In this document: positions 44,458-61,528 of the stretch, piece after piece
Layout of the letters: every line of letters begins with the position of its first letter
How positions within the stretch are numbered: position 1 is the first letter of the stretch
DNA from: Candidatus Curtissbacteria bacterium RIFCSPLOWO2_12_FULL_41_16
GTDB lineage: Bacteria; Patescibacteriota; Microgenomatia; Curtissbacterales; GWA2-41-24
NCBI GenBank assembly: GCA_001776545.1
Contig: MFBZ01000016.1
Span: forward strand, 1,088 to 65,087
Direction of reading: 5' to 3'
Length of the DNA stretch: 64,000 nt
Made by a program: the position numbers and the translations under genes
Notes under the pieces: generated by a model
Told to the model about the DNA's origin: nothing
Database searches by the model: none
The model's input: only the letters and a program-made list of their open reading frames with translations

Positions 44458-45402
44458 GAAATTCTAAGTTTTCAAAACCCTAACTCCGTTAATTTGCCCG
44501 AGTAATACTTCAAACATTGGCTCGTTTCTGTGATTAAAGCGAAATCCATACTCATCAACATAAGCCTGTAAATACTTTTTGCTAACAACCCGATAGACTC
44601 CTGTTACCCCTCTCTTGAAATGACTCCAAAAGTTCTCGATTCCTTGCGTATGCACTTCGCCTCGTACTGATTCCAACCTGTGATTTACTGATTCGTGGTA
44701 GTAGCCAAACTTCGGCAAGTGATAGTAACCTGCAAATTCGTCTGTAAAAACCCTTGCTGTCGGGTCAACATTCTCTTTTATCTGTTGTAGTAATGTCCAC
44801 TTACCAGTATTAGGAATGTGTTTTAAATATACTTTCCCGCCTCTTTTTAACATACCCATTACTATTTCCTTATCGGTTGAACCAATACCATATTTATTCT
44901 TGCGGTTGCTTGTCTTACCACCTACAAATGTTTCGTCAACTTCTACAATGCCGTCCAGCAAGCCATCTTTTGGCTCTGCCATTAACATTCTGATCTGTTT
45001 AAACATTCTCCACGCCGTCTTATATGAAACTGCAAGCTCACGCTGTAATTGCTTTGCTGATACGCCTGATCGGGTATTAGACATTACAAACATAGCGTAG
45101 AACCAATACTGCAAGGGTGTTGTGGTTTTTTCAAAGATAGTTCCTGCAAGCGGTGCTATTTGATAACCGCAGGAGCATTGATAAACCATTCTGCCTTTTA
45201 TTTTGTAGAAGTTGGATATTTGCTCGAAGTATTTACATTTCTTGTTCTGGCATTTAGCACCTTTTGGATACTTAATCTTAAATATCTCAGCAAGACACGA
45301 TTCATCATCTTTATACTTTCGCAAGAATGTTGCGAGGCTAAATTGATTTTTCATAGCCTCAGTATAGCACACTAATTACCTGTTGTCAAGGGATAAGTGC
45401 CG
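44440..45402 (-). mobile_element. IS1595-family insertion sequence (ends approximate)
   Basis: A single transposase gene filling about 0.9 kb between the toxin cassette and the rodZ-like gene. I could not define terminal inverted repeats by eye. Confidence 0.5.
44464..45354 (-). CDS. IS1595-family transposase (N-terminal Zn ribbon + DDE domain)
   Basis: MKNQFSLATFLRKYKDDESCLAEIFKIKYP...C..C.. ribbon and an ISXO2-like DDE core. Start trimmed to MKNQFSL. Confidence 0.85.
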   Translation of the reverse strand: MKNQFSLATFLRKYKDDESCLAEIFKIKYPKGAKCQNKKCKYFEQISNFYKIKGRMVYQCSCGYQIAPLAGTIFEKTTTPLQYWFYAMFVMSNTRSGVSAKQLQRELAVSYKTAWRMFKQIRMLMAEPKDGLLDGIVEVDETFVGGKTSNRKNKYGIGSTDKEIVMGMLKRGGKVYLKHIPNTGKWTLLQQIKENVDPTARVFTDEFAGYYHLPKFGYYHESVNHRLESVRGEVHTQGIENFWSHFKRGVTGVYRVVSKKYLQAYVDEYGFRFNHRNEPMFEVLLGQINGVRVLKT

Positions 45403-48247: not shown

Positions 48248-49306
48248 TCACCATTTTGGTAGATAATCTTTCAGGTTTTGAGCGGTAAGAGTAAGGCTTT
48301 CCAGTTTACTTTCCACTTTTAGCTTAGCTACTTTGCGGCATATGTTATTTAATGTTCTTTCTAAAGTTCTCATGCCTGCATCAAAACCAAGGGGCCTGAC
48401 GATTTGTGGCCAAACATCGTCTTCTAAAACTAAATTGCCGGGTTTAAGGCCTGAAGCAGCAATTATCCTTGGTAAAAGGTAATTTCTACCGATTATTATT
48501 TTTTGCTCATCGGAGTAAGAGGGCATTTCAATTATTTCTAATCTGTCTAAAACTGCCGTCGCGATACCTGTTGTATTATTGGCCGTAGCGATAAAGAAAA
48601 TTTCCGACAAATCAAACGGGTGGTCTATAAAATGGTCTAAAAATTGACTGTTCTGTTCGGGGTCTAAGAGTTCGACCAGTACACTCATGATGTCTGCCTT
48701 CGCTTCATCGGTAACCCTATCAATTTCATCCAGGAGAATTACAGGGTTTTTGGTTTGGACACGTCGCAAGACTTTCATAATTTGGCCCGGTTCAGCGTCT
48801 GTATAGGTCTTTGCTCTACCCCTTAGCTGTATGGCATCACCCATGCCGCCCATGGGAATTCTGCCAAATTGGCGACCCAATGCTTGGGCGATAGAGTAAG
48901 CCATGGTTGTTTTGCCGGTACCAACTAATCCCAGAAAAAGTAGAGTCGGGGCCTTTGGTCCTTGTGGATTTTGATGCTTTTGATTTTTAAGGTTTGCAAC
49001 AGCAATATACTCAAGTATGCGTTCTTTGACATTGTCCAATCCATGGTGATTGGCGTCCAGAATTTTCTTGGCGTTTTCCAGGGAGGCCGTATCCGTGCTT
49101 CTTTTATTCCAGGGCAGCGAGATGATCCAATCCAAGTATCTGGCGACGGAATCATACTCCTGTGAATATCCTTGTTGTGTGGCAAGGCGAACCAAGCGCG
49201 CGAGCATAGCTTGGGTTTTTTGGGCAAGCTCCGGCGGGAGCGCGGCGCCTGCCAGTTTATTTTCAAGAAGCGTGATGTCTTCAAATTGGGCAGGTGCAAC
49301 AGCCAT
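48248..49306 (-). CDS. Lon-type AAA+ ATPase module lacking both the N-terminal LAN domain and the C-terminal serine-protease domain
   Basis: Lon-specific pre-AAA helix (ARYLDWIISLPWNKRS...HHGLDNVKERILEYIAV), Walker A GLVGTGKTT, Walker B ILLDEID, sensor TAN, Arg finger LDRLE. Stops where the Lon protease domain would begin. The 5' 200 nt is GC-rich. Confidence 0.75.
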   Translation of the reverse strand: MAVAPAQFEDITLLENKLAGAALPPELAQKTQAMLARLVRLATQQGYSQEYDSVARYLDWIISLPWNKRSTDTASLENAKKILDANHHGLDNVKERILEYIAVANLKNQKHQNPQGPKAPTLLFLGLVGTGKTTMAYSIAQALGRQFGRIPMGGMGDAIQLRGRAKTYTDAEPGQIMKVLRRVQTKNPVILLDEIDRVTDEAKADIMSVLVELLDPEQNSQFLDHFIDHPFDLSEIFFIATANNTTGIATAVLDRLEIIEMPSYSDEQKIIIGRNYLLPRIIAASGLKPGNLVLEDDVWPQIVRPLGFDAGMRTLERTLNNICRKVAKLKVESKLESLTLTAQNLKDYLPKW

Positions 49307-49336: not shown

Positions 49337-50152
49337 TTAATTTGAATTTAAAGAAGCAACTAGATTAGGATTATCTCTCAGTTTATCTTTTAACCGGTAG
49401 GACTCTCCTTCTATTTTAATTATTGTAGCGTGATGATGCAGTCGATCGAGAATCGCTGCTGCTCTTTGTTGGCTGCCAAAAAGCCTCCCCCACTCCTCGA
49501 AAGATCTATTAGAAGCAAAGATAACTGAACCGGTTTCGTATCTTTGGTGCAGTAGCTTGAAAAGAAAAGTCGCTGCATTGGTACTTGTTTCATACAAATC
49601 CATTTCATCCAGTATTAAAAGATCTGGCCGCAGGAGTGAGGTGAAGAGATAATGGCGTTCTTCGGCACTAGCTTTTCTCTCGACTAGTTCTACTAGTTGG
49701 TCGAGGGTTAAAAATTTTACATCATGACCACTATAAATTGCTTCATAGCCAAGTGCCACACTAAGGTGAGTCTTACCTACTCCCGGAGGACCCATAAAAA
49801 CAACGTCTTCTGTTTTATCAATGTACTGGCAAGAAGCTAAATCGCTAATTTGTGTTTCGTCAACCGTGGGCTGAAAGGTAAAATCAAATTCTTTTAGAGT
49901 TCTCTTAAACGGAAAGCCGGCCTTTTGAATCCAGCGCTGCAAACGGCTGTCCTCTCTTAAAGTGAACTCTTTTTCAAGCAGCCCTTCTAAAAAATCGTGC
50001 GGAGTTTTTTTGTTTTTGATACACTCTTGCGCAGTTCTATCAAAGGATGAACTCATTCCATCAAGGCCAAGTTCTTTCAATGCTTGACTAATTCTTTCGT
50101 TCTGTTTTAGAGAGCTAGATATTTTATAAATTCTAACTTTCGACTTTGCCAT
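49337..50152 (-). CDS. istB: IS21-family helper ATPase IstB
   Basis: DnaC-like AAA: GPPGVGKTH Walker A, LILDEMD Walker B. Confidence 0.9.
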   Translation of the reverse strand: MAKSKVRIYKISSSLKQNERISQALKELGLDGMSSSFDRTAQECIKNKKTPHDFLEGLLEKEFTLREDSRLQRWIQKAGFPFKRTLKEFDFTFQPTVDETQISDLASCQYIDKTEDVVFMGPPGVGKTHLSVALGYEAIYSGHDVKFLTLDQLVELVERKASAEERHYLFTSLLRPDLLILDEMDLYETSTNAATFLFKLLHQRYETGSVIFASNRSFEEWGRLFGSQQRAAAILDRLHHHATIIKIEGESYRLKDKLRDNPNLVASLNSN

Positions 50153-51335
50153 TTTTGTTTTGCGGAATAAATTGGTTGTAATAACTAAGCGGTCGTATTT
50201 TTATCTCAATTGAATATTTCTCCAAGTTCCCAACCTGTATGTCAAATTCTTTTTCTGTGTTTTTAGGTTGACGAAGATTCTTGATAATGTGCTCGTCGCT
50301 GACGATCCACTCATTTCGGCCTTGAGAAACAATATGTTTGGCAATAACCTTGTCTTCATAATAAATCTTGATAAAGGGAACGCCGAGATTGTTAACTTCC
50401 TCTAAGAAAAGTCTTTTGGCCGCAAATTCGAGAGGTACTGAATAGTAGTTGGAATGATATTGAACCATCCCGTCTTTGGTACTACTTCTAACTTCAAAAT
50501 GGGAAATTTGATATCTTTGTTGTTTTGACGGAAATCTCAAGTATGCTTTTTCGAACAACCATCTGTCTATGGGTCTTTCTCCTGTTGTCCTGTGGTTTCG
50601 GTTATTGGCCACTTGACTTAGCCAAAAACTCGCTTTTTCATTCAGTTCCTCTAACGAAAAGGAGTTCTTTTTAAAACTCATACCCTGCATGAAATTGTTT
50701 CTTACAAATTTAACGGAGGCCTCAACTTTTCCTTTCGCTCTTGGCCAATACGGAGGGCAAACAAATATTTCGAAACCATAGAAATTGGCAAAATCCAGAA
50801 AAGCAGGATTGTAATGGTTTTTTACCTCCCCGTTTTCTAGTTTTTCCCTCCTTAAAACGACAGTTTTCATATTGTCATAAACTATGGTCTGGGGAATTCC
50901 TAACTGCTCAAAAGCATGAATATGACATTCCAACAATGATTGGATATTTTGTTTCGTGGTAAATTCGACATAGAGTGCGCGACTGTAGCCCAATACGTAA
51001 ACGAAGCAGTACAGCCTTTTAGCTACACCATTAATTTCGATTTCTCCGAAAGATCCCCAATCCACTTGAGCTTGCTCTCCTGGGCCTGTCTCTAATCGTT
51101 GACTACGCTTTAGAGTTTGAAAATTTTTAACATCTGTTTTCATGAACCGGTAAAGAGACATGTAACAGCCTTGATATCCTTGTTGCCTGATTTCAAAGTA
51201 CAACTTCTTGATGTTTGCAACGCTTGCTTTGGTTCTTTGCCCAAGATAATCAACAAAGGGAACAAGCTTCTTGGGAACTTTCAATGAAACGTTTTTGCTA
51301 ATTTTATAAGCTCTTTTCTGATGTCGCTTAAACAT
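50133..51335 (-). CDS. istA: IS21-family transposase IstA
   Basis: 400 aa. N-terminal HTH and DDE integrase core (QVDWG...). 20-nt overlap with istB. Confidence 0.9.
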   Translation of the reverse strand: MFKRHQKRAYKISKNVSLKVPKKLVPFVDYLGQRTKASVANIKKLYFEIRQQGYQGCYMSLYRFMKTDVKNFQTLKRSQRLETGPGEQAQVDWGSFGEIEINGVAKRLYCFVYVLGYSRALYVEFTTKQNIQSLLECHIHAFEQLGIPQTIVYDNMKTVVLRREKLENGEVKNHYNPAFLDFANFYGFEIFVCPPYWPRAKGKVEASVKFVRNNFMQGMSFKKNSFSLEELNEKASFWLSQVANNRNHRTTGERPIDRWLFEKAYLRFPSKQQRYQISHFEVRSSTKDGMVQYHSNYYSVPLEFAAKRLFLEEVNNLGVPFIKIYYEDKVIAKHIVSQGRNEWIVSDEHIIKNLRQPKNTEKEFDIQVGNLEKYSIEIKIRPLSYYNQFIPQNKNGKVES

Positions 51336-51477
51336 TTTAGCGATTTATTGTTTTGTCGGAATTATTCCAAATTTGCTGAAAAAATCAATCTCTATATTTT
51401 GAGCAAAGCTATAGGATATTATTCAAACTTTGGGGGAAATTTTCAAAGATTGACTAACAACAAATGAATATACTAAA

Positions 51478-51855
51478 ATGCGTATGGTGATTGCCGATGA
51501 TTGGTCGATAGTTTTTTACACAACAAAGAGCGGTCGCAATCCTGTCCAGGAGTTCTTAGACACTCTTGATGCAAAAACCAACTCTAGATTTATATGGTCG
51601 ATTAGGGAACTACATCGTCGCAATGTTCATGCCCGAAAACCATTAGTAAAACATATCGAAGAAAAGTTGCGGGAATTGCGGGAAGAAAGTATGGGTAATA
51701 TTCACAGAATTATATATGTATTTTTCACTGGCCGAAAGATTATTCTATTGCATGGTTTTCAGAAAAAGTCACGACAAACGCCGCGTCGAGAAATTGACAT
51801 CGCATCGTCTCGACTTAAAGACTTTATAGACAGGCAGGGAGGTGAAAATGACTAA
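51478..51855 (+). CDS. higB: HigB-like toxin (Gp49/RelE family)
   Basis: VFYTTKSGRNPVQEFLDTLD....I...I..L ... IYVFFTGRKIILLHGFQKKSRQTPRREI is the Gp49-like HigB signature. Toxin-first gene order. Confidence 0.75.
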   Translation: MRMVIADDWSIVFYTTKSGRNPVQEFLDTLDAKTNSRFIWSIRELHRRNVHARKPLVKHIEEKLRELREESMGNIHRIIYVFFTGRKIILLHGFQKKSRQTPRREIDIASSRLKDFIDRQGGEND

Positions 51856-52186
51856 ACTAGATTTAATTAAAAAGGGAGAACTTGCATATAAGAAGTGGGA
51901 GAAAAAATTCCTTTCCGATTCCGAGAATCGTCGTATTTACGAGGAAGAAGCTGCCAAAAAAGAACTTTGGCTACAATTAGTGGAAGCTCGACAAGCTGCG
52001 GGGCTTACACAGCAACAACTTGCAAAAAGACTTGGTGTTTCACAAGCGCAAGTGGCTAGAGTGGAAAAGCGTGGTTATGATGCCTATACTTTAACTTCAC
52101 TGCGTCGCTATGTTAACGCTTTAGGTAAGGGCTTTTCTCTAAAAGTTATTATAGAAGAACAACGTATGTATTCTATTAACAATTAA
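51842..52186 (+). CDS. higA: HigA-like antitoxin (XRE-family HTH)
   Basis: LVEARQAAGLTQQQLAKRLGVSQAQVARVEKRGY HTH_XRE. 14-nt overlap with higB. Confidence 0.75.
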   Translation: MKMTKLDLIKKGELAYKKWEKKFLSDSENRRIYEEEAAKKELWLQLVEARQAAGLTQQQLAKRLGVSQAQVARVEKRGYDAYTLTSLRRYVNALGKGFSLKVIIEEQRMYSINN

Positions 52187-52309: not shown

Positions 52310-53344
52310 TTATTTTAACATCATTAAGCCAGAAAACTTATTGGCCTTCAAAATAAATTCGAACTTGGTAACTTTTTCAAAGACTTGGGGATTTTTCTTT
52401 TTTTGGCCGAAAAGCAAATCATAAAAATTTGGGCCGAGTGGTTGATTGCCATTTCTAAAAAAAACAGCCATTGACGTATCAGGCGGTAGTTTTGGGAGTT
52501 CAAAGACAGGATTTTTTAATTTTTGGACAGATGCAAGAATGCGGGCGGCGGCATTTGAGGAAACAAAGAAAGACCACTCTCCAATTTGGAAAAATGTAAA
52601 TGTTTTTCTTTGATCATTCTCGTCTGGTGGTAAGTTCAAAAGATGAAAAGTTATATTTTCTTGTGATTCTTCCTTGTATACAGGTTGTTGGCCTTCGGCT
52701 GTTGGAATATTTTTTAACCTATCCAAATCTATCTTTTTGGCGCTTCTTAAAATAACTGCAACATCAGCGTCTTGTCCAAGAATAATAAGATATTGGCCAT
52801 GTTCTGAAATTAGATTGTCATCAATCCAGTTCGCAAGTTCTTTGGGAAAAGTAAATCTGGTTTTTAGAAAATCTCTGAGGTCTGGTCCAAAGATGACTAG
52901 ATTGGCAGAGCCGGGAATTATAAACTTCTTGCTTGCAAAATTGTCTGATATAAAAGGACTTGTTTCTCGTAGGGTTGGAAATGGTACGCGGGTCATCGTA
53001 CCTTTAAAGCTGATTTCTTTGGCTTTAATTGCGAGCCTTACATTCACTGGCGTTAGGTATGAAAGTCTAGCCTGCGAAGTTGCGTCTAACTCAAACTCAA
53101 CTCCCTCTTTTGTGCTTTGTGGTAAATTGAGTTTTTCTAAAATTTGCGAAAACCTTAACTCGTCTTCTTCTTGAAGATTAAAGTTGAGTTGAAACTTATT
53201 TTCATAAGAAGTGAGTTGGAGTGAATTTTCGTTTTGGTTAAATAATTTTAGAAAAGCTGTTAAGAAAAGGGTTGCTAAGAGAAGTATTGTAAACCCTAAG
53301 ATTATCTTTGTCTTGCCTACCGGCAGGCGGAGGCTATTTTTCAT
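52310..53344 (-). CDS. hypothetical secreted/membrane-anchored protein
   Basis: 344 aa. N-terminal signal/anchor ILGFTILLLATLFLTAFL. No recognised domain. Confidence 0.6.
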   Translation of the reverse strand: MKNSLRLPVGKTKIILGFTILLLATLFLTAFLKLFNQNENSLQLTSYENKFQLNFNLQEEDELRFSQILEKLNLPQSTKEGVEFELDATSQARLSYLTPVNVRLAIKAKEISFKGTMTRVPFPTLRETSPFISDNFASKKFIIPGSANLVIFGPDLRDFLKTRFTFPKELANWIDDNLISEHGQYLIILGQDADVAVILRSAKKIDLDRLKNIPTAEGQQPVYKEESQENITFHLLNLPPDENDQRKTFTFFQIGEWSFFVSSNAAARILASVQKLKNPVFELPKLPPDTSMAVFFRNGNQPLGPNFYDLLFGQKKKNPQVFEKVTKFEFILKANKFSGLMMLK

Positions 53345-53346
53345 TT

Positions 53347-55569
53347 TTAATATCTTTTCGGGGGACGTCTGCGATCTGACCCAGTACGCCTATTGTCAAA
53401 TCTTTTATGGACAAAGTCTCTTCTCTGGTCACCTTGGTGCCTCGCGGAACCTACCGCATCTCCTTCTAAATTCATTGAGAGATTAACTCTGCCTTGATCA
53501 TCAATTTCAGCAACTCTGACTTTGACTGTTTGGCCTATTTTGACAATGTCTTCAACTTTATCAACTCTGTAAGATGCCAGTCTCGAAACGTGTACTAAGC
53601 CTTCTTTACCCGGGAGGATTTCGACCATAGCTCCAAACGGGAGAATTCTTTTAACCTTACCTTCGTAGACTTCACCCGGCTGAGGCTCTTTAACGATACC
53701 TTCTACCCACTGAGCAGCTTTTTGACAAGCCTGGGCGTCTTTGCCACTGATAGTGACTGTACCTTCGTCGTTGATGTCGATAGCAACACCTGTTTCGGAG
53801 ATGATTTTATTAATTGTACGGCCGCCAGAACCGATTACTTCGCCAATTTTTGACGGATCAATTCTAACTAAGATAACAGTTGGGGCGTGTGGTGAAATTG
53901 TTTTTCTTGAACCAGGAATTGTAGAGAGGATTTTTTCTAATATCGCAAGTCTGGCCTTCCTCGCTTTTTCGAGAGCTTCCTCAACAATTTTTACCGTGAT
54001 ACCATTTAATTTCGTGTCCATTTGAATTACGTTGATGCCATTTTTGGTGCCGGCGACTTTGAAATCCATATCTCCCTGGGCATCCTCCTGGTAGGCAATA
54101 TCTGTTAAAAGAAGGTATTTTGATTTGTCTTTTTTATCGGAAATTAAACCGATAGAAATACCTGCAACGGGTTCTTTTATGGGTACACCGGCATCCATAA
54201 GTGCCAGGGTAGAACCGCATACAGACGCCATAGAAGTTGATCCGGCAGAAGATAAAACTTCTGAAACAACTCGAATAGTGTATGGGAAAGCATCGTTTGA
54301 GGGAAGAACAGGTAAGAGCGCTCTTTCGGCTAGCGCACCGTGACCGATTTCCCTTCTTCCAGGTGAGCCCAGTCTCCTGACTTCACCTGTTGAAAAAGGA
54401 GGAAAGTTGTAATGATGCATGTATCTTTTGGTCCCTTCTTTACTCATACCTTCAATTAATTGCTCGAGAGCGGGAGATGCTAAGGTGGCAATCGATAAAA
54501 CTTGGGTTTCACCCCTTTCAAAAAAGCCGGAACCGTGGGTTCTTGGCAGAATTCCTACCTTGGTTTTGATCGATCTTATTTCTTCGGGAGCACGACCGTC
54601 GATCCGCTTTTTGTTAACCAAAATCTGTTTTCTTAAAAATTCACTGACAGCATCATCAAGCATGGCAGAAAGAATCTTCGTGGTTATTTCTTGATTGCCG
54701 GATAACTGTGATTGGTCTTCTTTTAGAAACTCATTTTCGATTTTTTCTAGCGACTCTCCAAACCAGTTCTCGCTTTCAGCTTTGGAGGGCAATTCTAATT
54801 CTTTAATAAGATTGTCTTGAATAAATTTTTTGATAGCTTCTTCTTTTTTGGGATCCAACTTTTGAACTTCGTACTGTTGTTTTTGGCGACCCGCCTCCTT
54901 GACAAATTCACCGATGAGTGAAACGATTATTTCCCCTTGTTCGAGGGCAAACTTAACCGCTTGCGCCATGGATTTTTCTTCAACCTCTTGGCCGGCAGCT
55001 TCAATCATAACAATTTCGTCACGAGTTGAGGCGACGACTAAATCGAGACTTGAGAATGTTTTTTCTTCTTCTGTTGGGTTTAAGATAAAACCACCATTTT
55101 GTCTGCCAATTCGCACGGCCGCAATTGGTCCGTCCCAGGGTATGTCGGAAATAGAAAGGGCACAAGAAGCAGCAATTAAAGAAACGACATCGGGATCATT
55201 TGCTTGATCCACAGAAAGAACAGTAATAACGACTTGAACTTCAGCTTGGTAATCTTTAGGGAAAAGAGGACGAATAGCGCGATCAATTAGCCTGGAAGTT
55301 AAAATTGCTTCCTCAGAAGGACGACCTTCTCTTTTAATAAATCTCGAGGTTGAAATTTTACCGCCAGCATATAATCTTTCTTCATAATCAACAGCTAATG
55401 GGAAAAAATCGACGTCTGGACGGGCCGTTTGAGAAACAGCGGTTGCTAAAACAACCGTTTCGCCGTAAGAAGCTAAGACTGAGCCACTGGCCTGGCCGGC
55501 CAGTTCACCGGTTTCCAGAACTAGTTTTTTGCCTGCAAGTTCGATTTCTTTTCGAATAATCTTTTGCAT
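53347..55569 (-). CDS. pnp: polyribonucleotide nucleotidyltransferase (PNPase)
   Basis: Two RNase PH domains, KH and S1 domains. Arg-rich C-terminal tail. 740 aa. Confidence 0.95.
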   Translation of the reverse strand: MQKIIRKEIELAGKKLVLETGELAGQASGSVLASYGETVVLATAVSQTARPDVDFFPLAVDYEERLYAGGKISTSRFIKREGRPSEEAILTSRLIDRAIRPLFPKDYQAEVQVVITVLSVDQANDPDVVSLIAASCALSISDIPWDGPIAAVRIGRQNGGFILNPTEEEKTFSSLDLVVASTRDEIVMIEAAGQEVEEKSMAQAVKFALEQGEIIVSLIGEFVKEAGRQKQQYEVQKLDPKKEEAIKKFIQDNLIKELELPSKAESENWFGESLEKIENEFLKEDQSQLSGNQEITTKILSAMLDDAVSEFLRKQILVNKKRIDGRAPEEIRSIKTKVGILPRTHGSGFFERGETQVLSIATLASPALEQLIEGMSKEGTKRYMHHYNFPPFSTGEVRRLGSPGRREIGHGALAERALLPVLPSNDAFPYTIRVVSEVLSSAGSTSMASVCGSTLALMDAGVPIKEPVAGISIGLISDKKDKSKYLLLTDIAYQEDAQGDMDFKVAGTKNGINVIQMDTKLNGITVKIVEEALEKARKARLAILEKILSTIPGSRKTISPHAPTVILVRIDPSKIGEVIGSGGRTINKIISETGVAIDINDEGTVTISGKDAQACQKAAQWVEGIVKEPQPGEVYEGKVKRILPFGAMVEILPGKEGLVHVSRLASYRVDKVEDIVKIGQTVKVRVAEIDDQGRVNLSMNLEGDAVGSARHQGDQRRDFVHKRFDNRRTGSDRRRPPKRY

Positions 55570-55797: not shown

Positions 55798-56061
55798 TTA
55801 CTTAGGTAATCCTAATTTTCCAATAATATCTTTATAGCGATCCGGTGCTTTTCTCGTCAGATAATGAAGTAATCTTCGTCTTTTATTGATCATCGAAAGT
55901 AGTCCTCTTCTGGAGTGGTTGTCATGAGCGTGGGATTTAAGATGATCAGCAACGTTGTCTATTCTTTGGGATATAAGGGCGACCTGTACTTCGGGGGAGC
56001 CTGTATCTCCTTCATGTGTTTTGAATTTATCTATTATCTGCTTTTTTGTATTTTGTGCCAT
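55798..56061 (-). CDS. rpsO: 30S ribosomal protein S15
   Basis: HEGDTGSPEVQVALISQRI..L..HLK.H..D..SRRGLL.....RRRLL.YL. Confidence 0.95.
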   Translation of the reverse strand: MAQNTKKQIIDKFKTHEGDTGSPEVQVALISQRIDNVADHLKSHAHDNHSRRGLLSMINKRRRLLHYLTRKAPDRYKDIIGKLGLPK

Positions 56062-56119: not shown

Positions 56120-57043
56120 TCAGTTCTCGCTGTCAAAGGATTTTGAGCCCTTATAAATTTTGGGTGGTTTGAGCCAGTCTTCTTCAGAGTCCTCAAAAGA
56201 TTTATAAAAATCAGCAGGTTTTATGTGGGCTTTAGGTTGGAATTCTGAAGTTGATGGTTGACTGACGAAACTCGGGTTCCTAAAAGTCTTACTAAGTTGG
56301 TTAGCAAGACTGGCTTTACCAGCGCCAAATTTAACTAACCAAGCGGCTGTCTGAAAACTTGCCGGACTAGACTTTGCAGGTGAAAAATTTGACGTTGCAT
56401 CAACAATGCCCACAAACAGGTTAAAAGCGATGTCCTGATCTATAGGAAGCGCTAAGTCTTGCAGGATCAAACCTGTTATCTCGCTGAGACTTGCTGCTTG
56501 CGGATTGCAAATATCTACTTGAGCAAATTTTTGTTTCACATCTTCTCTATTGATATTCACTATCCATACAGTTGAGTCTATATTTTGTTCGTGAGTAATA
56601 AGTCTGGTCAAATCTTCCAAGGACTTGTTCCCAATAGAGAAAATCAGGTCTGGTTTTGATAGAGTTTCTTCAAATTTAAGTTGTTCTTGAGAGACCCCAG
56701 TAGTTCCAGGAAACGAGTGGATAACAATCTTTAATTTGTTACCGTCTAAAAAATAAGTCACCTTATCGACATTTTGGACTGCATTTTCAACAACAACAAC
56801 TAGGTTCTTTTTACCTGCAGGCTTGCCAATTTTATCAACGCCATAAAGTGTTTTTGCATCAGATACCTGTGGCGACTTTGCGAATATGGAAACGTTTTTG
56901 CCTAATTTTTGGCAGGAAAGACAAATCGCCAGCCCCGCGGCAAGTCCATCAAAACCAGAATTTTCGGAAACAGCAACCAAAACGGCTTCTGCTTTGGTTA
57001 AACTTTCAAGGGTTTTCTCTTTTGAATTTTGATCCATAAACAT
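56120..57043 (-). CDS. DHH/DHHA1-family (NrnA-like) protein with degenerate catalytic motifs
   Basis: Collinear with NrnA. Motif I position reads VSENSGFDGLAAG instead of H.H..PD.DA.GS. Motif II reads VVVVENA instead of ivvDt. Motif III reads VIHSF instead of iDHH. The DHHA1 GGGH position reads FGAGK. Confidence 0.55.
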   Translation of the reverse strand: MFMDQNSKEKTLESLTKAEAVLVAVSENSGFDGLAAGLAICLSCQKLGKNVSIFAKSPQVSDAKTLYGVDKIGKPAGKKNLVVVVENAVQNVDKVTYFLDGNKLKIVIHSFPGTTGVSQEQLKFEETLSKPDLIFSIGNKSLEDLTRLITHEQNIDSTVWIVNINREDVKQKFAQVDICNPQAASLSEITGLILQDLALPIDQDIAFNLFVGIVDATSNFSPAKSSPASFQTAAWLVKFGAGKASLANQLSKTFRNPSFVSQPSTSEFQPKAHIKPADFYKSFEDSEEDWLKPPKIYKGSKSFDSEN

Positions 57044-57138: not shown

Positions 57139-58569
57139 TTACCCCAATGATTCTATAATATCACCAATTCTCACGTCAAGGCTTGGATTAATACCAATTC
57201 CACAGTCTTGACCATTAGTTACCTGTTCGAGGTCTTTTTTAAATCTTTTTAATGAAACAATCTTTGCCTCTTGTTTAAGGTTATCTCTTTTTAAGAGTAT
57301 TTGGTCGCCGATTTTCAACCTGCCATGAGTTACTTTGGCGCCAGCTATCTTTTTGCCATCTACGTCGAAGGTGGCAACTACTTTAGCGCGACCGATAATT
57401 TTTAATTCATGTTTTGCCTGTTCATAGAGTGCGACGACATCTTGCATGTCGGAAAGTAGTTCATAAATAACATTATAATTTTTGATCACGACTCCCTCTC
57501 TTTCCGCTTGAGATTTAATTTGGCCATTAATTTTAAGATTAAATGCCAAAATTGGAGCATTGGCAAGTTTGGCAACAACAATGTCGCCGCTTTTAACCTC
57601 ACCCAACCCCGAGGAAACAACTAATAAATTCTTCGGTAGGTTGCTCATAATGGCCTCAAGAGAACCAGCGACATCAGCTTTAATAACTACTTTGAAGCTT
57701 TCTTTGGCCTCTTCGGATTTGGCGATAATATCGGCAATAGTTTTGGCAGGTTGACCGGCTTTCGATTTTGTCAGAGTAAGATCGCTAACAATACCACCAA
57801 TATCAAATATTTTTTTAAATCCTAAAATTTCGACTGGTTTGCCCGGTTGTGCTTTGTCAACATTCTGATCCTTGTCGTCAATTAAAGCGCGGACTGTAAT
57901 AATCTCGGAATCGACCGTTATTTTTTGACCGACTGCAAGCGTACCTTTTTTAACAATAACAGTAACTACTGGCCCGCGTTTTTTATCTAAAAATGATTCA
58001 ACGACAACAGCCTCCAAGGGATCTTCTGGAAGGTAGGGCTGCGGTGAAAGTTGCCAGACTAAAAGAACAACCTCAAGAAGTTCGGTGATTCCCTTATTTT
58101 TTGGTGCGGCAACTTCGACCTCGGGAACTTGGCCGCCGAAGCTTTCAAGAATAATATTTTGGTCTTGGAGCTGTTTTTTTATCCGATCGATGTTGATATC
58201 AGGAAGATCAGTTTTAGTGATTGCGACAATTGACGGCTTGTCTGCTTTTTTAATGTGTTTAATGGCCTCGATAGTTTGAGGTTTAACCCCATCGTTGGCG
58301 GCAACCACTAGAATAACGATGTCGGCAACTTCTGCGCCACGAGAACGCATTTTTTCGAATGCGGCATGTCCGGGTGTATCAATAAAAGTAATAGGTTTAT
58401 CTTGAAAAATTATCTGATAGGCACCAATATGTTGGGTTATGCCACCATGCTCTGTGGCAACAACATTGGTTCTGCGGATTGTGTCAAGAAGGGTAGTTTT
58501 ACCGTGGTCGACATGACCCATAAGGGTAACAATTGGCGGACGAATATCGGTATCTGGTTTCTGGTTCAT
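57139..58569 (-). CDS. infB: translation initiation factor IF-2, short form (G domain onward)
   Basis: [22 protein letters not shown] motifs and IF-2 domains II-IV. 476 aa with no N-terminal extension. Confidence 0.9.
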
Positions 58570-58603: not shown

Positions 58604-59953
58604 TTAACTAGACTCGTCGCCATCAGCGTTGTTGGAAGTTGTTTCATCTTTTATCACTGATGGCGTAGGAGATTCTGGGGGCACTGAGGTAGTTGTCGAC
58701 TGTTTTGATTCTGTGCTTTCATTTCCTTTTGTGCCTTCCGTTCCTTTTGTGCCTTCCGTGATCGTTTTTTCGTCCTGATCGCTTGTGGAAATTGTCTGAT
58801 CATCTATATTTCGAACTGGTTGGCTGATCTTGCGACTCACTGAGTCATCTGCCGGTTTCTTTTGATCGCCTTTTGCGCTTGATTTTTCCGTTGTCCCCTT
58901 ATCATTGGTTTTTGATAGCTTTGATGCTTTTAATCCCTCTTCAATAACTCCTAGGGCCTTTTTGGCCTCAGCTTGAGCTTTTCTTTCTTTGGCCTCAACT
59001 TCTTTAGGCAAACCACTTTTGCCGCGAATATCAATTTTATATCCGGTAAGTTTGTGAGCAAGCCGCACATTTTGGCCTTCTTTACCGATTGCCAGTGAAA
59101 GTTGGTCATCAGGTGCGGTAACTTCTGCGGTTTTTTCTTTTTCGTTTACTTTTACTTGTAAATCCTTCGCGGGTGAAAGAGCGGCTCTGATAAACTCTGA
59201 CGGGTCTTCTTGATAAGCGATGACGTCGATTTTCTCGTCACTAAGTTCATTAATAACAGCCTGGACTCTAACGCCTTTTTGACCAACACATGAACCAACT
59301 GGATCAACGCCGAGTTGGCGCGAGGCGACGGCAACTTTGGATCTTGAGCCGGCTTCTCTGGCAACGGTTTTAATTTCTACAATACCTTGCGCAATTTCCG
59401 GAACTTCTTGTTTGAAAATACCTTCCAGGAGACCATTAGCGCTTCTTGAAATAATAATTTCTTCTCCCCTTGCTCCTTCTTTAATACCAACAACATAAAA
59501 TTTCAAGCGTTGGTTTACATAATATTTTTCATTGTGAGCTTGTTCTGCGGGTGGCATAATACCTTCGGCCTTGCCAAGATTGACCGTGATCACTTGACCG
59601 GCAATTCTTTGAATAATTCCGGAAACAATGGTGCCAACTTTTGATGAATACTCTGTTAAAATGGCATTTTTCTCGGCTTCCCGAATTCTTTGCAAAATGA
59701 CTTGTTTGGCGGTTTGCGCGGCAATTCGGCCAAAACCACTCGGAGTCACATTTTTTTTACCTTTTTGAAGATTTACTTCGCCAGTTGCCGGATCAAGATC
59801 AACGACGATGCCTTCGGGCTCTCCGTAATCTTTGCGGTAAGCAGCCAGAATGGCTTGTTTGATAGAGTCGATAACGACTTCGGGTTCGATTCCCCGTTCG
59901 GAGCAAACCTGATTTAGGGCTGATGCGAATTCTGTTCGAGCTTGTATGGCCAT
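58604..59953 (-). CDS. nusA: transcription termination/antitermination factor NusA with low-complexity C-terminal tail
   Basis: NusA N-domain, S1 and two KH domains (GxxG: GKEGQNVRLA). The tail holds the GTKGTE repeat. Confidence 0.9.
   Translation of the reverse strand: MAIQARTEFASALNQVCSERGIEPEVVIDSIKQAILAAYRKDYGEPEGIVVDLDPATGEVNLQKGKKNVTPSGFGRIAAQTAKQVILQRIREAEKNAILTEYSSKVGTIVSGIIQRIAGQVITVNLGKAEGIMPPAEQAHNEKYYVNQRLKFYVVGIKEGARGEEIIISRSANGLLEGIFKQEVPEIAQGIVEIKTVAREAGSRSKVAVASRQLGVDPVGSCVGQKGVRVQAVINELSDEKIDVIAYQEDPSEFIRAALSPAKDLQVKVNEKEKTAEVTAPDDQLSLAIGKEGQNVRLAHKLTGYKIDIRGKSGLPKEVEAKERKAQAEAKKALGVIEEGLKASKLSKTNDKGTTEKSSAKGDQKKPADDSVSRKISQPVRNIDDQTISTSDQDEKTITEGTKGTEGTKGNESTESKQSTTTSVPPESPTPSVIKDETTSNNADGDESS
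58724..58759. repeat. 18-nt tandem duplication in the nusA tail
   Basis: tccttttgtgccttccgt occurs twice, encoding GTKGTE twice. Confidence 0.7.
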
Positions 59954-61096: not shown

Positions 61097-61528
61097 TCAA
61101 TTAGAAATTTTCTTTCCTTGGAGATCTTGACCACCATAAGTTGCTGTTGTCTTATTAACTTTAAACTCAAGTTGACTAACTGAATTTTTATCACTTAAAA
61201 GTTCAATTTTGTAGGTGCCAGCAACAGGTAGGGGGAAATTAACAAGCTCAGTCATTAAATTGGCCTTGCCATTTTGGCCTAAAGTGACTTTGATTTCTCT
61301 GTCTGGAAATTTTTGTTCGGTTTCTTGCTGGGGGGTTAGTTTTAAGGTAAGTGGGTATTCCCTACCTGGTTCACCTTTTAAAACTGCGACCAGAAACATT
61401 CTGGGCCAGGAAGTTGGCAAATTGGCAACAAAAAATTGGTCGAAAATGCCAATTACTGAGAGCTTCTGCTCCTGAGAAACAGTGGCCAAATCGCATAAAA
61501 CAAATATCTCCGCTTGAAGTTTGTCCAC
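61097..61528 (-). CDS. hypothetical protein inserted between dnaK and dnaJ
   Basis: 143-aa ORF flanked by 2 nt (dnaK) and 81 nt (dnaJ). No recognised domain. Confidence 0.5.
   Translation of the reverse strand: MDKLQAEIFVLCDLATVSQEQKLSVIGIFDQFFVANLPTSWPRMFLVAVLKGEPGREYPLTLKLTPQQETEQKFPDREIKVTLGQNGKANLMTELVNFPLPVAGTYKIELLSDKNSVSQLEFKVNKTTATYGGQDLQGKKISN

What the first reader, a model, noticed from the sequence alone, without database searches (positions are those of the whole stretch)
56120..57043. NrnA-like DHH/DHHA1 protein with every catalytic motif degenerate, sitting in the nusA-infB-rpsO-pnp cluster
Established knowledge: the DHH gene position between infB and rpsO mirrors the infB-rbfA-nrnA(cnpB) arrangement of actinobacteria.

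What the sequence shows: the motif I Asp/His cluster, motif II Asp, the DHH triad and the DHHA1 GGGH are all substituted (SENSGFDG, VVVENA, VIHSF, GAGK).

Inference: the protein is probably a catalytically dead pseudo-phosphoesterase retained for a binding or regulatory role in the RNA-processing operon. rbfA and truB are absent.
Basis: partly seen in the sequence, partly recalled or inferred. Interest (0 to 1): 0.55.

Follow-up and report, generated by a model that had tools for sequence, protein, structure and literature searches.

The report
Dead NrnA-like protein with docking tail
The gene after infB encodes a strongly conserved relative of the small-RNA-degrading enzyme NrnA that has lost most of its catalytic residues and its whole second domain, and has gained a flexible linker ending in an invariant short peptide, so it most likely acts as a docking or scaffold protein in a group of uncultivated, small-genome bacteria.

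Summary
The ORF (56120-57043, minus strand, 307 aa) is a real gene. Its domain has dN/dS 0.07 against an 84%-identical relative.

- The DHH triad corresponds to N165-R166-E167, not VIHSF.
- There is no DHHA1 domain (0 of 67 hits). GAGK lies in the last helices of the DHH domain.
- Of the four Mn ligands of NrnA', only D32 survives.
- None of 128 family members keeps all four ligands.

New findings:
- The protein is a DHH-like domain with a roughly 60-residue beta insertion, then a disordered P/Q-rich linker, then an invariant C-terminal peptide (DWLKPPKIYKGSKSFD).
- The family spans class Microgenomatia, with 390 cluster representatives at E<=1e-30.
- In all 80 newly fetched genomic loci the gene sits directly after infB where the flank was held (median gap 19 nt, often overlapping), within nusA-infB-X-rpsO-pnp.
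- Published work reports that Microgenomatia lost rbfA, which normally fills this slot.

Best reading: a non-catalytic scaffold derived from NrnA' that docks a partner through its tail. The partner is unknown; IF2/30S and PNPase are candidates.

The parts
56120..57043 (-). Whole ORF, 307 aa including the stop codon. The likely true start is M3 at 57037, because all homologues begin at MDQN.
56285..57037 (-). DHH-like globular domain, residues 3-253. The AF2 model is confident over most of it. It ends at the helix where the DHHA1 domain would begin in NrnA.
56945..56968 (-). Motif I remnant S26-ENSGF-D32-G33. In NrnA' the segment is H-x-x-P-D-x-D. Only the second Asp (D32, equivalent to the Mn ligand Asp-51 of MSMEG_2630) is kept.
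56780..56803 (-). Motif II remnant LVVVV-E86-NA. The Mn ligand Asp-110 equivalent is Glu here. In close relatives this position is E, D, N, K, Q, G, A or S.
56594..56779 (-). Family-specific insertion, about residues 89-150. It holds three antiparallel strands (92-100, 103-110, 122-127), an extra strand (133-137) and a helix.
56543..56563 (-). Motif III remnant I161-V-N-I164-N165-R166-E167. It aligns without gaps to v-l-v-I-D-H-H of 4ls9. The essential Asp-134 becomes Asn, the Mn ligand His-135 becomes Arg, and His-136 becomes Glu.
56384..56410 (-). Motif IV remnant G212-IVD-A216-T-SN-F220, opposite G-L-T-T-D-T-G-S-F. The Mn ligand Asp-185 becomes Ala. This position is Ala in 85 of 128 family members, with Ser and Gly next most frequent.
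56180..56284 (-). Disordered linker of variable length, residues 254-288. Across the family it is P/Q-rich and 16-158 aa long. Selection is relaxed (dN/dS 0.53).
56132..56179 (-). Conserved C-terminal peptide D289-WLKPPKIYKGSKSF-D304. Family-wide the motif is (P)DW(L/F)xPK(I/V)(Y/F)(K/R)(G/S)S. W290 is present in 128 of 128 members. dN/dS is 0.10.
57139..58569 (-). infB. This IF2 is minimal (476 aa) and starts at the G domain. It is the invariant upstream neighbour.
55798..56061 (-). rpsO (S15), the usual downstream neighbour. A promoter-like site at 56136-56108 overlaps the 3' end of the target gene.

Best explanation
The gene encodes a non-catalytic descendant of the operon-resident nanoRNase NrnA' (the infB-rbfA-nrnA clade).

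What the sequence shows:
- It kept the DHH fold.
- It lost the DHHA1 substrate-binding domain.
- It lost three of the four Mn ligands and the DHH triad.
- It gained a conserved beta insertion of about 60 residues.
- It gained a flexible P/Q-rich linker and an invariant aromatic-basic C-terminal peptide.

What I infer:
- It works as a scaffold or adaptor. The acidic globular domain is a conserved interaction module.
- The tethered C-terminal peptide docks onto a highly conserved partner.
- It is made together with IF2, often by translational coupling. The partner is therefore most likely part of the translation-initiation or late-30S machinery (IF2 or the 30S subunit).
- PNPase, encoded two genes downstream, is the main alternative partner.
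- The gene fills the slot held by rbfA in other bacteria. Microgenomatia are reported to lack rbfA.
For: Homology and fold:
- Profile against PDB gives E=1.4e-11 to 4ls9.
- 53 of 67 family members hit PF01368 and none hits DHHA1.
- NrnA is the NCBIfam model matched by the most family members, 20 of 67.

Loss of catalytic residues:
- The ligand list (Asp-51, Asp-110, His-135, Asp-185, with D134A inactive) comes from PMC4081065.
- Of 128 family members, 79 keep one ligand, 47 keep two, 2 keep three and none keeps four.

Function retained:
- dN/dS is 0.07 for the domain, 0.10 for the tail and 0.53 for the linker. For comparison, infB gives 0.13.
- The family has 390 cluster representatives at E<=1e-30.

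Architecture:
- The AF2 model is confident over most of residues 1-253. Residues 255-288 and most of the remaining tail have pLDDT below 50.
- The C-terminal motif is invariant across roughly 30%-identical homologues.
- In the window and 84 loci the motif occurs only at the C-terminus of this protein.
- The domain is acidic, with median pI 5.1.

Genomic context:
- The order nusA-infB-X-rpsO-pnp holds in every locus where the flanks were held.
- The gap from infB to X has a median of 19 nt, with 10 overlaps of 1 or 4 nt. No other gene was detected in the gap; the one 679-nt gap was not inspected.
- The gap from X to rpsO holds unrelated inserted genes in 17 of 76 loci.

Literature:
- Microgenomatia are reported to have lost rbfA, era and der (PMC12641178).
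- A C-terminal Trp peptide that docks a partner has a precedent in the RNase E GWW peptide, which binds PNPase (PMC3376730).
Against: - No experiment or complex prediction identifies a partner. The choice among IF2/30S, PNPase and others rests only on gene neighbourhood.
- Operon position may be inherited from NrnA' rather than reflect the present function.
- D32 is invariant. In most of the wider family the motif III Asp is kept (88 of 128) and the motif II Asp is often kept (47 of 128). A residual one-metal or ligand-binding site therefore cannot be excluded.
- The isolated DHH domain of MSMEG_2630 is active on small substrates. Absence of DHHA1 alone does not prove inactivity.
- I could not inspect the model coordinates, so I do not know whether the conserved residues (D32, K94, E188, D204, N208, T217) cluster into one site.
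Confidence: 0.6

Rival explanations
1. It is still an enzyme. It would be a DHH-domain-only phosphatase or phosphodiesterase acting on small substrates such as pAp, dinucleotides or polyphosphate, with a rearranged active site built from D32, E86, N165, H109, D204 and N208.
For: - The isolated DHH domain of MSMEG_2630 keeps pAp-phosphatase and bis-pNPP activity (PMC4081065).
- D32 is invariant, and D204 and N208 are family-invariant polar residues.
- H109 is invariant within Curtissbacteria.
- Many wider-family members keep Asp at motifs II and III.
Against: - The metal-binding His is Arg here and is kept in only 6 of 128 members. Ala dominates the motif IV Asp position (85 of 128), and no member keeps all four ligands.
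- D134A alone inactivates MSMEG_2630, and the equivalent residue here is Asn.
- Positions 86, 165, 166 and 167 vary freely among close relatives while the rest of the domain is under strong constraint. An active site would not behave this way.
- H109 is not conserved outside Curtissbacteria.
Confidence: 0.12
2. It is a functional replacement for RbfA. This is a specific form of the scaffold model: a late-30S maturation or initiation-checkpoint factor whose basic-aromatic tail probes the 30S subunit.
For: - It occupies exactly the infB-proximal slot of rbfA in every locus examined.
- Microgenomatia are reported to lack rbfA, era and der (PMC12641178).
- It is often translationally coupled to infB.
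Against: - The slot is also that of nrnA' itself, so position may simply be inherited.
- The acidic globular domain (pI about 5) is unlike an rRNA-binding KH protein.
- Dojkabacteria, WWE3 and Saccharimonadia also lack rbfA. I could not show that they carry this family.
- There are no ribosome-binding data.
Confidence: 0.15
3. It is a PNPase adaptor. The C-terminal Trp peptide would dock on the PNPase core, as the RNase E GWW peptide does in Caulobacter, and so tie PNPase to another component.
For: - pnp is in the same cluster in the loci where the downstream flank was held.
- There is a precedent for a C-terminal Trp-containing peptide after a disordered region binding PNPase (PMC3376730).
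- Ancestral NrnA acts on the short-RNA end products of exoribonucleases (established knowledge; abstracts listed).
Against: - The motif bears no sequence resemblance to GWW or to the E. coli microdomain.
- The link to rpsO-pnp is looser than the link to infB, with unrelated genes inserted in 17 of 76 loci.
- The idea was not tested.
Confidence: 0.1
4. It is a decaying, functionless remnant of nrnA, or a mis-called ORF.
For: Catalytic residues are lost. The single sequence gives no Pfam or NCBIfam hit.
Against: - dN/dS is 0.07-0.10 for the domain and tail.
- The full-length ORF is conserved in more than 160 genomes down to about 27% identity, with an invariant tail.
- Synteny holds in every locus examined.
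Confidence: 0.01

Closest known systems
NrnA' clade of nanoRNase A (M. smegmatis MSMEG_2630 / PDB 4ls9; M. tuberculosis Rv2837c CnpB / 5jju)
   Same: - It is the best sequence match and among the best structural matches.
- It shares the DHH fold.
- The gene lies in the nusA-infB operon directly downstream of the initiation-factor gene (PMC4081065).
   Different: - No DHHA1 domain and no GGGH motif.
- Three of the four Mn ligands and the DHH triad are replaced.
- A beta insertion of about 60 residues follows motif II.
- It has a P/Q-rich disordered linker and an invariant C-terminal peptide.
- No rbfA lies between infB and the gene.
Cdc45 and archaeal RecJdbh-type inactive RecJ homologues
   Same: These are DHH-superfamily proteins that lost catalytic residues and serve as structural subunits of a larger machine. 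This rests on established knowledge; the relevant papers (PMC5484177, PMC5716160) were listed but not read.
   Different: - They belong to the RecJ branch, not the NrnA branch.
- They keep a DHHA1-like second domain.
- They act in DNA replication (CMG helicase).
- They occur in archaea and eukaryotes, not bacteria.
RNase E C-terminal PNPase-recognition peptides (Caulobacter GWW motif, E. coli microdomain)
   Same: The arrangement is the same: a disordered segment ending in a short, conserved, Trp-containing basic peptide that docks a partner enzyme (PMC3376730).
   Different: - There is no sequence similarity.
- The carrier protein is different.
- The interaction is not tested here. This is an analogy of mechanism only.
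RbfA (ribosome-binding factor A)
   Same: It occupies the same genomic slot immediately after infB. rbfA is reported lost in Microgenomatia (PMC12641178).
   Different: - The fold is unrelated (a KH-type RNA-binding protein of about 120 aa).
- There is no evidence that the DHH-like protein binds ribosomes.

Membership tests
DHH superfamily (Pfam PF01368, DHH N-terminal domain fold) | Sequence and profile homology to the DHH domain | tested here: met
   - The window protein alone gives no Pfam hit.
- The family profile against PDB NrnA gives E=1.4e-11.
- 53 of 67 family members hit PF01368, with best E=1.1e-14.
DHH superfamily (Pfam PF01368, DHH N-terminal domain fold) | Parallel beta-sheet DHH fold | tested here: met
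   - The AF2 model has mean pLDDT 81.7, with most 10-residue blocks across residues 1-240 at 84-97.
- Foldseek top hits are NrnA and TM1595 at E about 1e-11.
Catalytically competent DHH phosphoesterase | Motifs I-IV that supply the metal ligands (DxD, D, DHH, D). In MSMEG_2630 these are Asp-51, Asp-110, His-135 and Asp-185, plus the essential Asp-134. | tested here: not met
   - The query has D32 (kept), E86, N165-R166-E167 and A216.
- None of 128 family members keeps all four ligands.
DHH/DHHA1 subfamily (NrnA, RecJ, GdpP) | C-terminal DHHA1 domain (PF02272) with a GGGH motif | tested here: not met
   - 0 of 67 members hit PF02272.
- PDB alignments stop at about residue 253, at the DHH-domain terminal helices.
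- Residues 255-288 and most of the remaining tail are predicted disordered.
- GAGK aligns inside the DHH-domain terminal helices.
NrnA' clade (PMC4081065) | Gene neighbourhood with infB, rbfA and nusA | tested here: inconclusive
   infB and nusA are neighbours in every locus where the upstream flank was held. rbfA is absent from the cluster. No phylogeny against canonical NrnA and NrnA' sequences was built.
NrnA (nanoRNase / pAp phosphatase) | Hydrolysis of 2-5-nt RNA and pAp | not testable with these tools
   This needs a biochemical assay. The sequence evidence argues against activity.
Short-linear-motif docking protein (mechanistic class, not a homology family) | A disordered linker and a conserved terminal peptide under selection | tested here: met
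   - pLDDT is below 50 for residues 255-288.
- Linker length ranges from 16 to 158 aa.
- W290 is present in 128 of 128 members, P294 in 127 and K295 in 123.
- dN/dS is 0.10 for the tail and 0.53 for the linker.
Short-linear-motif docking protein (mechanistic class, not a homology family) | A demonstrated binding partner | not testable with these tools
   No multimer prediction was possible under the tool's input rules. No experimental data exist.

The most novel reading that the evidence does not exclude
Microgenomatia turned a dead nanoRNase (NrnA') into a new translation factor. The protein is co-translated with a minimal IF2. It would use its tethered DW-x-PKIYKGS peptide to bind the 30S subunit or IF2. 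In doing so it would take over the late-30S maturation or initiation-checkpoint role of RbfA, and perhaps Era, which this lineage has lost.
Probability: 0.15. Interest if true: 0.75.

Novelty: new variant of a known kind. Interest (0 to 1): 0.5.

Why it matters
Microgenomatia, a large class of the Candidate Phyla Radiation, have about half the usual number of ribosome-biogenesis factors. They are reported to lack rbfA, era and der (PMC12641178). How they assemble and license ribosomes is an open question.

This gene is a strong candidate for a lineage-specific part of the translation or RNA-decay machinery:
- It is present in every Microgenomatia locus examined.
- It is under selection as strong as its essential neighbours.
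- It is usually coupled to infB.
- It is annotated everywhere as 'hypothetical protein'.

It would also be a clear bacterial example of a DHH-family pseudoenzyme. The known inactive DHH proteins, Cdc45 and RecJdbh, are archaeal or eukaryotic replisome parts.

The invariant tail peptide gives a direct experimental handle, through peptide pull-down or AF-multimer screening, for finding the partner.

Tried and rejected
- Single-sequence Pfam and NCBIfam scans of the window protein found nothing useful. Homology needed profiles.
- The search for related loci with the broad alignment A2 failed because no stretch was conserved enough. I repeated it with the narrower alignment A3.
- Foldseek against afdb50 was not available on the machine.
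- A literature search for the tail motif strings gave no papers.
- Rfam and tRNA scans of the window gave no hits. No leader RNA or other RNA feature explains the locus.
- I looked for the tail motif on other ORFs in the window and 84 loci, to find co-clients of the same partner. It occurs only on this family.
- I checked whether the genes inserted between X and rpsO in 17 loci include rbfA or truB. By inspection they look like miscellaneous membrane proteins, toxin-antitoxin pairs and YqeY-like proteins; no domain search was run on them.
- I considered fusing the tail to IF2, S15 or PNPase for an AF2 pseudo-multimer run.
The alignment from N165 to the SSxSE helix is ungapped against 4ls9, with 20 residues on both sides. 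H109 is not conserved outside Curtissbacteria.
- I could not test whether Microgenomatia carry a second, intact nrnA or orn. I could not test whether the sister classes WWE3 and Dojkabacteria carry this family. Only the top 150 representatives and 10-kb flanks were accessible.

Full report
**1. The observation**

The ORF is real: 56120-57043 on the minus strand, 307 aa. All homologues begin at MDQN, so the true start is probably M3 at 57037. It lies in a minus-strand run:
- grpE
- dnaK
- a DUF6941 gene
- dnaJ
- nusA (58604-59953)
- infB (57139-58569)
- the target
- rpsO (55798-56061)
- pnp (53347-55569)

Nothing else is encoded between infB and rpsO, so rbfA and truB are absent from the cluster. 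Ten further mid-size ORFs in the window are ribosomal proteins, rpoA, a methionine aminopeptidase-type peptidase, YceG, a reductase, a sortase and a transposase. None is TruB or a second DHH protein.

**2. Is it a DHH protein?**

The single sequence gives no Pfam or NCBIfam hit. phmmer against PDB finds only NrnA-type DHH proteins at E about 5e-4 to 1e-3. Stronger evidence follows:
- A profile of 31 homologues (A1) raises the match to E=1.4e-11 for 4ls9 (M. smegmatis MSMEG_2630). It gives about 1e-9 for Rv2837c, SH1221 and S. aureus NrnA, and about 1e-7 for TM1595.
- An AlphaFold2 model is confident over most of residues 1-253, with mean pLDDT 81.7 and 10-residue block means mostly 84-97 up to residue 240.
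- Foldseek places the model with NrnA and TM1595 at E about 1e-11.
- 53 of 67 family members hit Pfam DHH (PF01368), with best E=1.1e-14.
- NrnA is the NCBIfam model hit by the most members, 20 of 67.

Homology to the NrnA branch of the DHH superfamily is therefore established.

**3. The catalytic motifs**

In MSMEG_2630 the Mn2+ ion is bound by Asp-51, Asp-110, His-135 and Asp-185. The D134A mutant is inactive (PMC4081065). The alignments map these residues as follows:

| MSMEG_2630 | Query |
|---|---|
| H-x-x-P-D49-x-D51 | S26-E-N-S-G30-F-D32 |
| V-V-T-V-D110 | V-V-V-V-E86 |
| I-D134-H135-H136 | I164-N165-R166-E167 |
| G-L-T-T-D185-T-G-S-F | G212-I-V-D-A216-T-S-N-F220 |

The stretch from motif III to the SSxSE helix is ungapped, with 20 residues on both sides. 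The motif III assignment is therefore secure.

Two other assignments are wrong:
- 'GAGK' (240-243) is not a degenerate GGGH. It aligns with ELGVDNAS in the last helices of the DHH domain.

There is no DHHA1 domain. Alignments end near residue 253, none of 67 members hits PF02272, and residues 255-288 and most of the remaining tail have pLDDT below 50.

Across 128 diverse family members the pattern is:
- D32 is kept in 126.
- Position 86 is Pro in 54 and Asp in 47.
- Position 165 is Asp in 88.
- The metal-binding His (position 166) is present in only 6.
- Position 216 is Ala in 85, with Ser and Gly next most frequent.
- 79 members keep one ligand, 47 keep two, 2 keep three and none keeps four.

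Within Curtissbacteria, positions 86, 165, 166 and 167 vary freely.

**4.

After the globular domain comes a linker of very variable length and sequence. It is 16-158 aa long (median 59), with 15% Pro and 14% Gln.

The protein ends in a peptide that is almost invariant: DWLKPPKIYKGSKSFD in Curtissbacteria. In homologues only 26-35% identical it reads (P)DW(L/F)xPK(I/V)(Y/F)(K/R)(G/S)S. W290 is present in 128 of 128 members, P294 in 127 and K295 in 123.

In the window and 84 fetched loci this motif occurs only at the C-terminus of this protein. No paper in the library contains the motif.

The globular domain is acidic, with median pI 5.1.

Other family-wide invariant or near-invariant residues are K94 and V95 in the insertion, E188, D204, N208, G212, T217 and F220.

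**5. Selection**

I compared the gene with an 84%-identical relative (L085). dN/dS is 0.07 for the domain, 0.53 for the linker and 0.10 for the tail. For the neighbours it is 0.13 for infB and 0.03 for rpsO. The gene is functional, and the domain and tail carry the constraint.

**6. Distribution and context**

Close homologues are from Candidatus Curtissbacteria and are annotated 'hypothetical protein'.

An exhaustive HMM search found 390 cluster representatives at E<=1e-30 and 3081 at E<=1e-10.

A scan of one genome per species found 164 relatives. The 80 loci kept carry titles naming Gottesmanbacteria, Woesebacteria, Chisholmbacteria, 'Microgenomates' or Patescibacteria. Daviesbacteria appears. 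I read these as class Microgenomatia.

In every locus where the flanks were held, the order is nusA-infB-X-rpsO-pnp.
- The gap from the infB stop to the X start has a median of 19 nt over 81 loci. Ten are overlaps of 1 or 4 nt, and no other gene was detected in the gap. The one 679-nt gap was not inspected and may reflect a mis-called start.
- The gap from X to rpsO has a median of 93 nt. In 17 of 76 loci it exceeds 500 nt and carries unrelated genes.

The conserved unit is therefore infB-X. In the window the gap is about 95-101 nt. No terminator-like hairpin was found in either flanking intergenic gap on the coding strand. A promoter-like site for rpsO overlaps the 3' end of X.

**7. Comparison with what is known**

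PMC4081065 split nanoRNases into two clades. One, 'NrnA'', is defined by infB, rbfA and nusA neighbours and is co-transcribed with infB and rbfA. Its founding member, MSMEG_2630, is the best PDB sequence match here. The Microgenomatia gene is best read as a positional descendant of NrnA' that lost DHHA1 and catalysis. I did not build a phylogeny to prove the descent.

PMC12641178 reports that Microgenomatia, together with Dojkabacteria and WWE3, lost rbfA, era and der. The gene therefore sits in the infB-proximal slot that rbfA holds elsewhere.

Inactive DHH proteins are known as replisome scaffolds (Cdc45, RecJdbh; papers listed but not read). They belong to the RecJ branch and keep two domains.

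C-terminal Trp peptides that dock a partner after a disordered segment have a precedent in the RNase E GWW peptide, which binds PNPase (PMC3376730). That is an analogy only.

**8. Mechanism**

Shown:
- The DHH fold.
- The missing DHHA1 domain.
- The replaced ligands.
- The insertion.
- The disordered linker.
- The conserved tail.
- Purifying selection.
- The coupling to infB.

Inferred:
- The protein is non-catalytic.
- It acts as a scaffold or adaptor that docks a conserved partner through the tail.

The partner is unknown. I favour IF2 or the 30S subunit because of the tight and often overlapping link to infB. PNPase is the main alternative.

Residual metal or ligand binding at D32 cannot be excluded. 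The isolated DHH domain of MSMEG_2630 is active on small substrates, so inactivity rests on the lost ligands and not on the missing domain.

**9. Verdict**

The finding is real and more interesting in detail than stated, but two of its four motif claims are wrong. It is a new variant of a known kind: a Microgenomatia-wide family of DHH-only pseudo-nanoRNases with a tethered docking peptide. No family model or paper that I searched describes it. Interest is 0.5.

Noticed in passing
window 49337-52186: An IS21-type element lies here: an rve/Mu-transposase-C ORF at 50133-51335 and IstB at 49337-50152. Next to it is a Gp49-like/HTH toxin-antitoxin pair at 51478-52186. Both sit between the conserved ORF after pnp and the AAA/Lon-lid ATPase gene (48248-49306). 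In the related 1.08-Mb contig L001 those two genes are adjacent, so this looks like a recent insertion.
   Followed up: partly
window 52310-53344 (-): A 344-aa ORF directly downstream of pnp has no Pfam hit. It is conserved in position and sequence in the Curtissbacteria loci L001-L003 (329-335 aa), where it is followed by an AAA ATPase and FtsK. It is another conserved unknown in this cluster.
   Followed up: partly
window 57139-58569 (-): IF2 is minimal at 476 aa. The GTPase domain starts at about residue 13, with no N-terminal domains. The same length (476-478 aa) is seen in L001 and L003.
   Followed up: partly
window 61097-61528 (-): A 143-aa DUF6941 protein (Pfam E=2e-18) is encoded between dnaK and dnaJ, inside the grpE-dnaK-dnaJ chaperone cluster.
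   Followed up: no
window 58604-59953 (-): NusA carries a long low-complexity C-terminal tail rich in K, E, T and S, from about residue 330 to 449. No Pfam domain was matched beyond about residue 310.
   Followed up: no
window 44464-45372 (-): An ISXO2-like (IS1595 family) transposase makes a second mobile element in the window.
   Followed up: no
window 1-64000: The 64 kb holds no tRNA gene and no Rfam family at gathering threshold, although it contains the ribosomal-protein, rpoA and nusA-infB clusters. No known r-protein leader or S15/pnp leader was detected.
   Followed up: partly
loci L007, L009, L010, L015, L016, L024 and many others: Many public MAG records titled 'uncultured Gammaproteobacteria bacterium' carry this Microgenomatia-type operon and protein. 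So does one titled 'Candidatus Bathyarchaeia archaeon' (L025) and one 'Saccharimonadales' protein (P0114). The record titles look like placeholder or wrong taxonomy.
   Followed up: no
family members in A2: Seven of 67 family members weakly match the NCBIfam model PRK14538, 'bifunctional signaling protein/50S ribosomal protein L9', and nine match 'A-adding tRNA nucleotidyltransferase'. These are probably hits to a shared DHH domain, though I did not check this.
   Followed up: no
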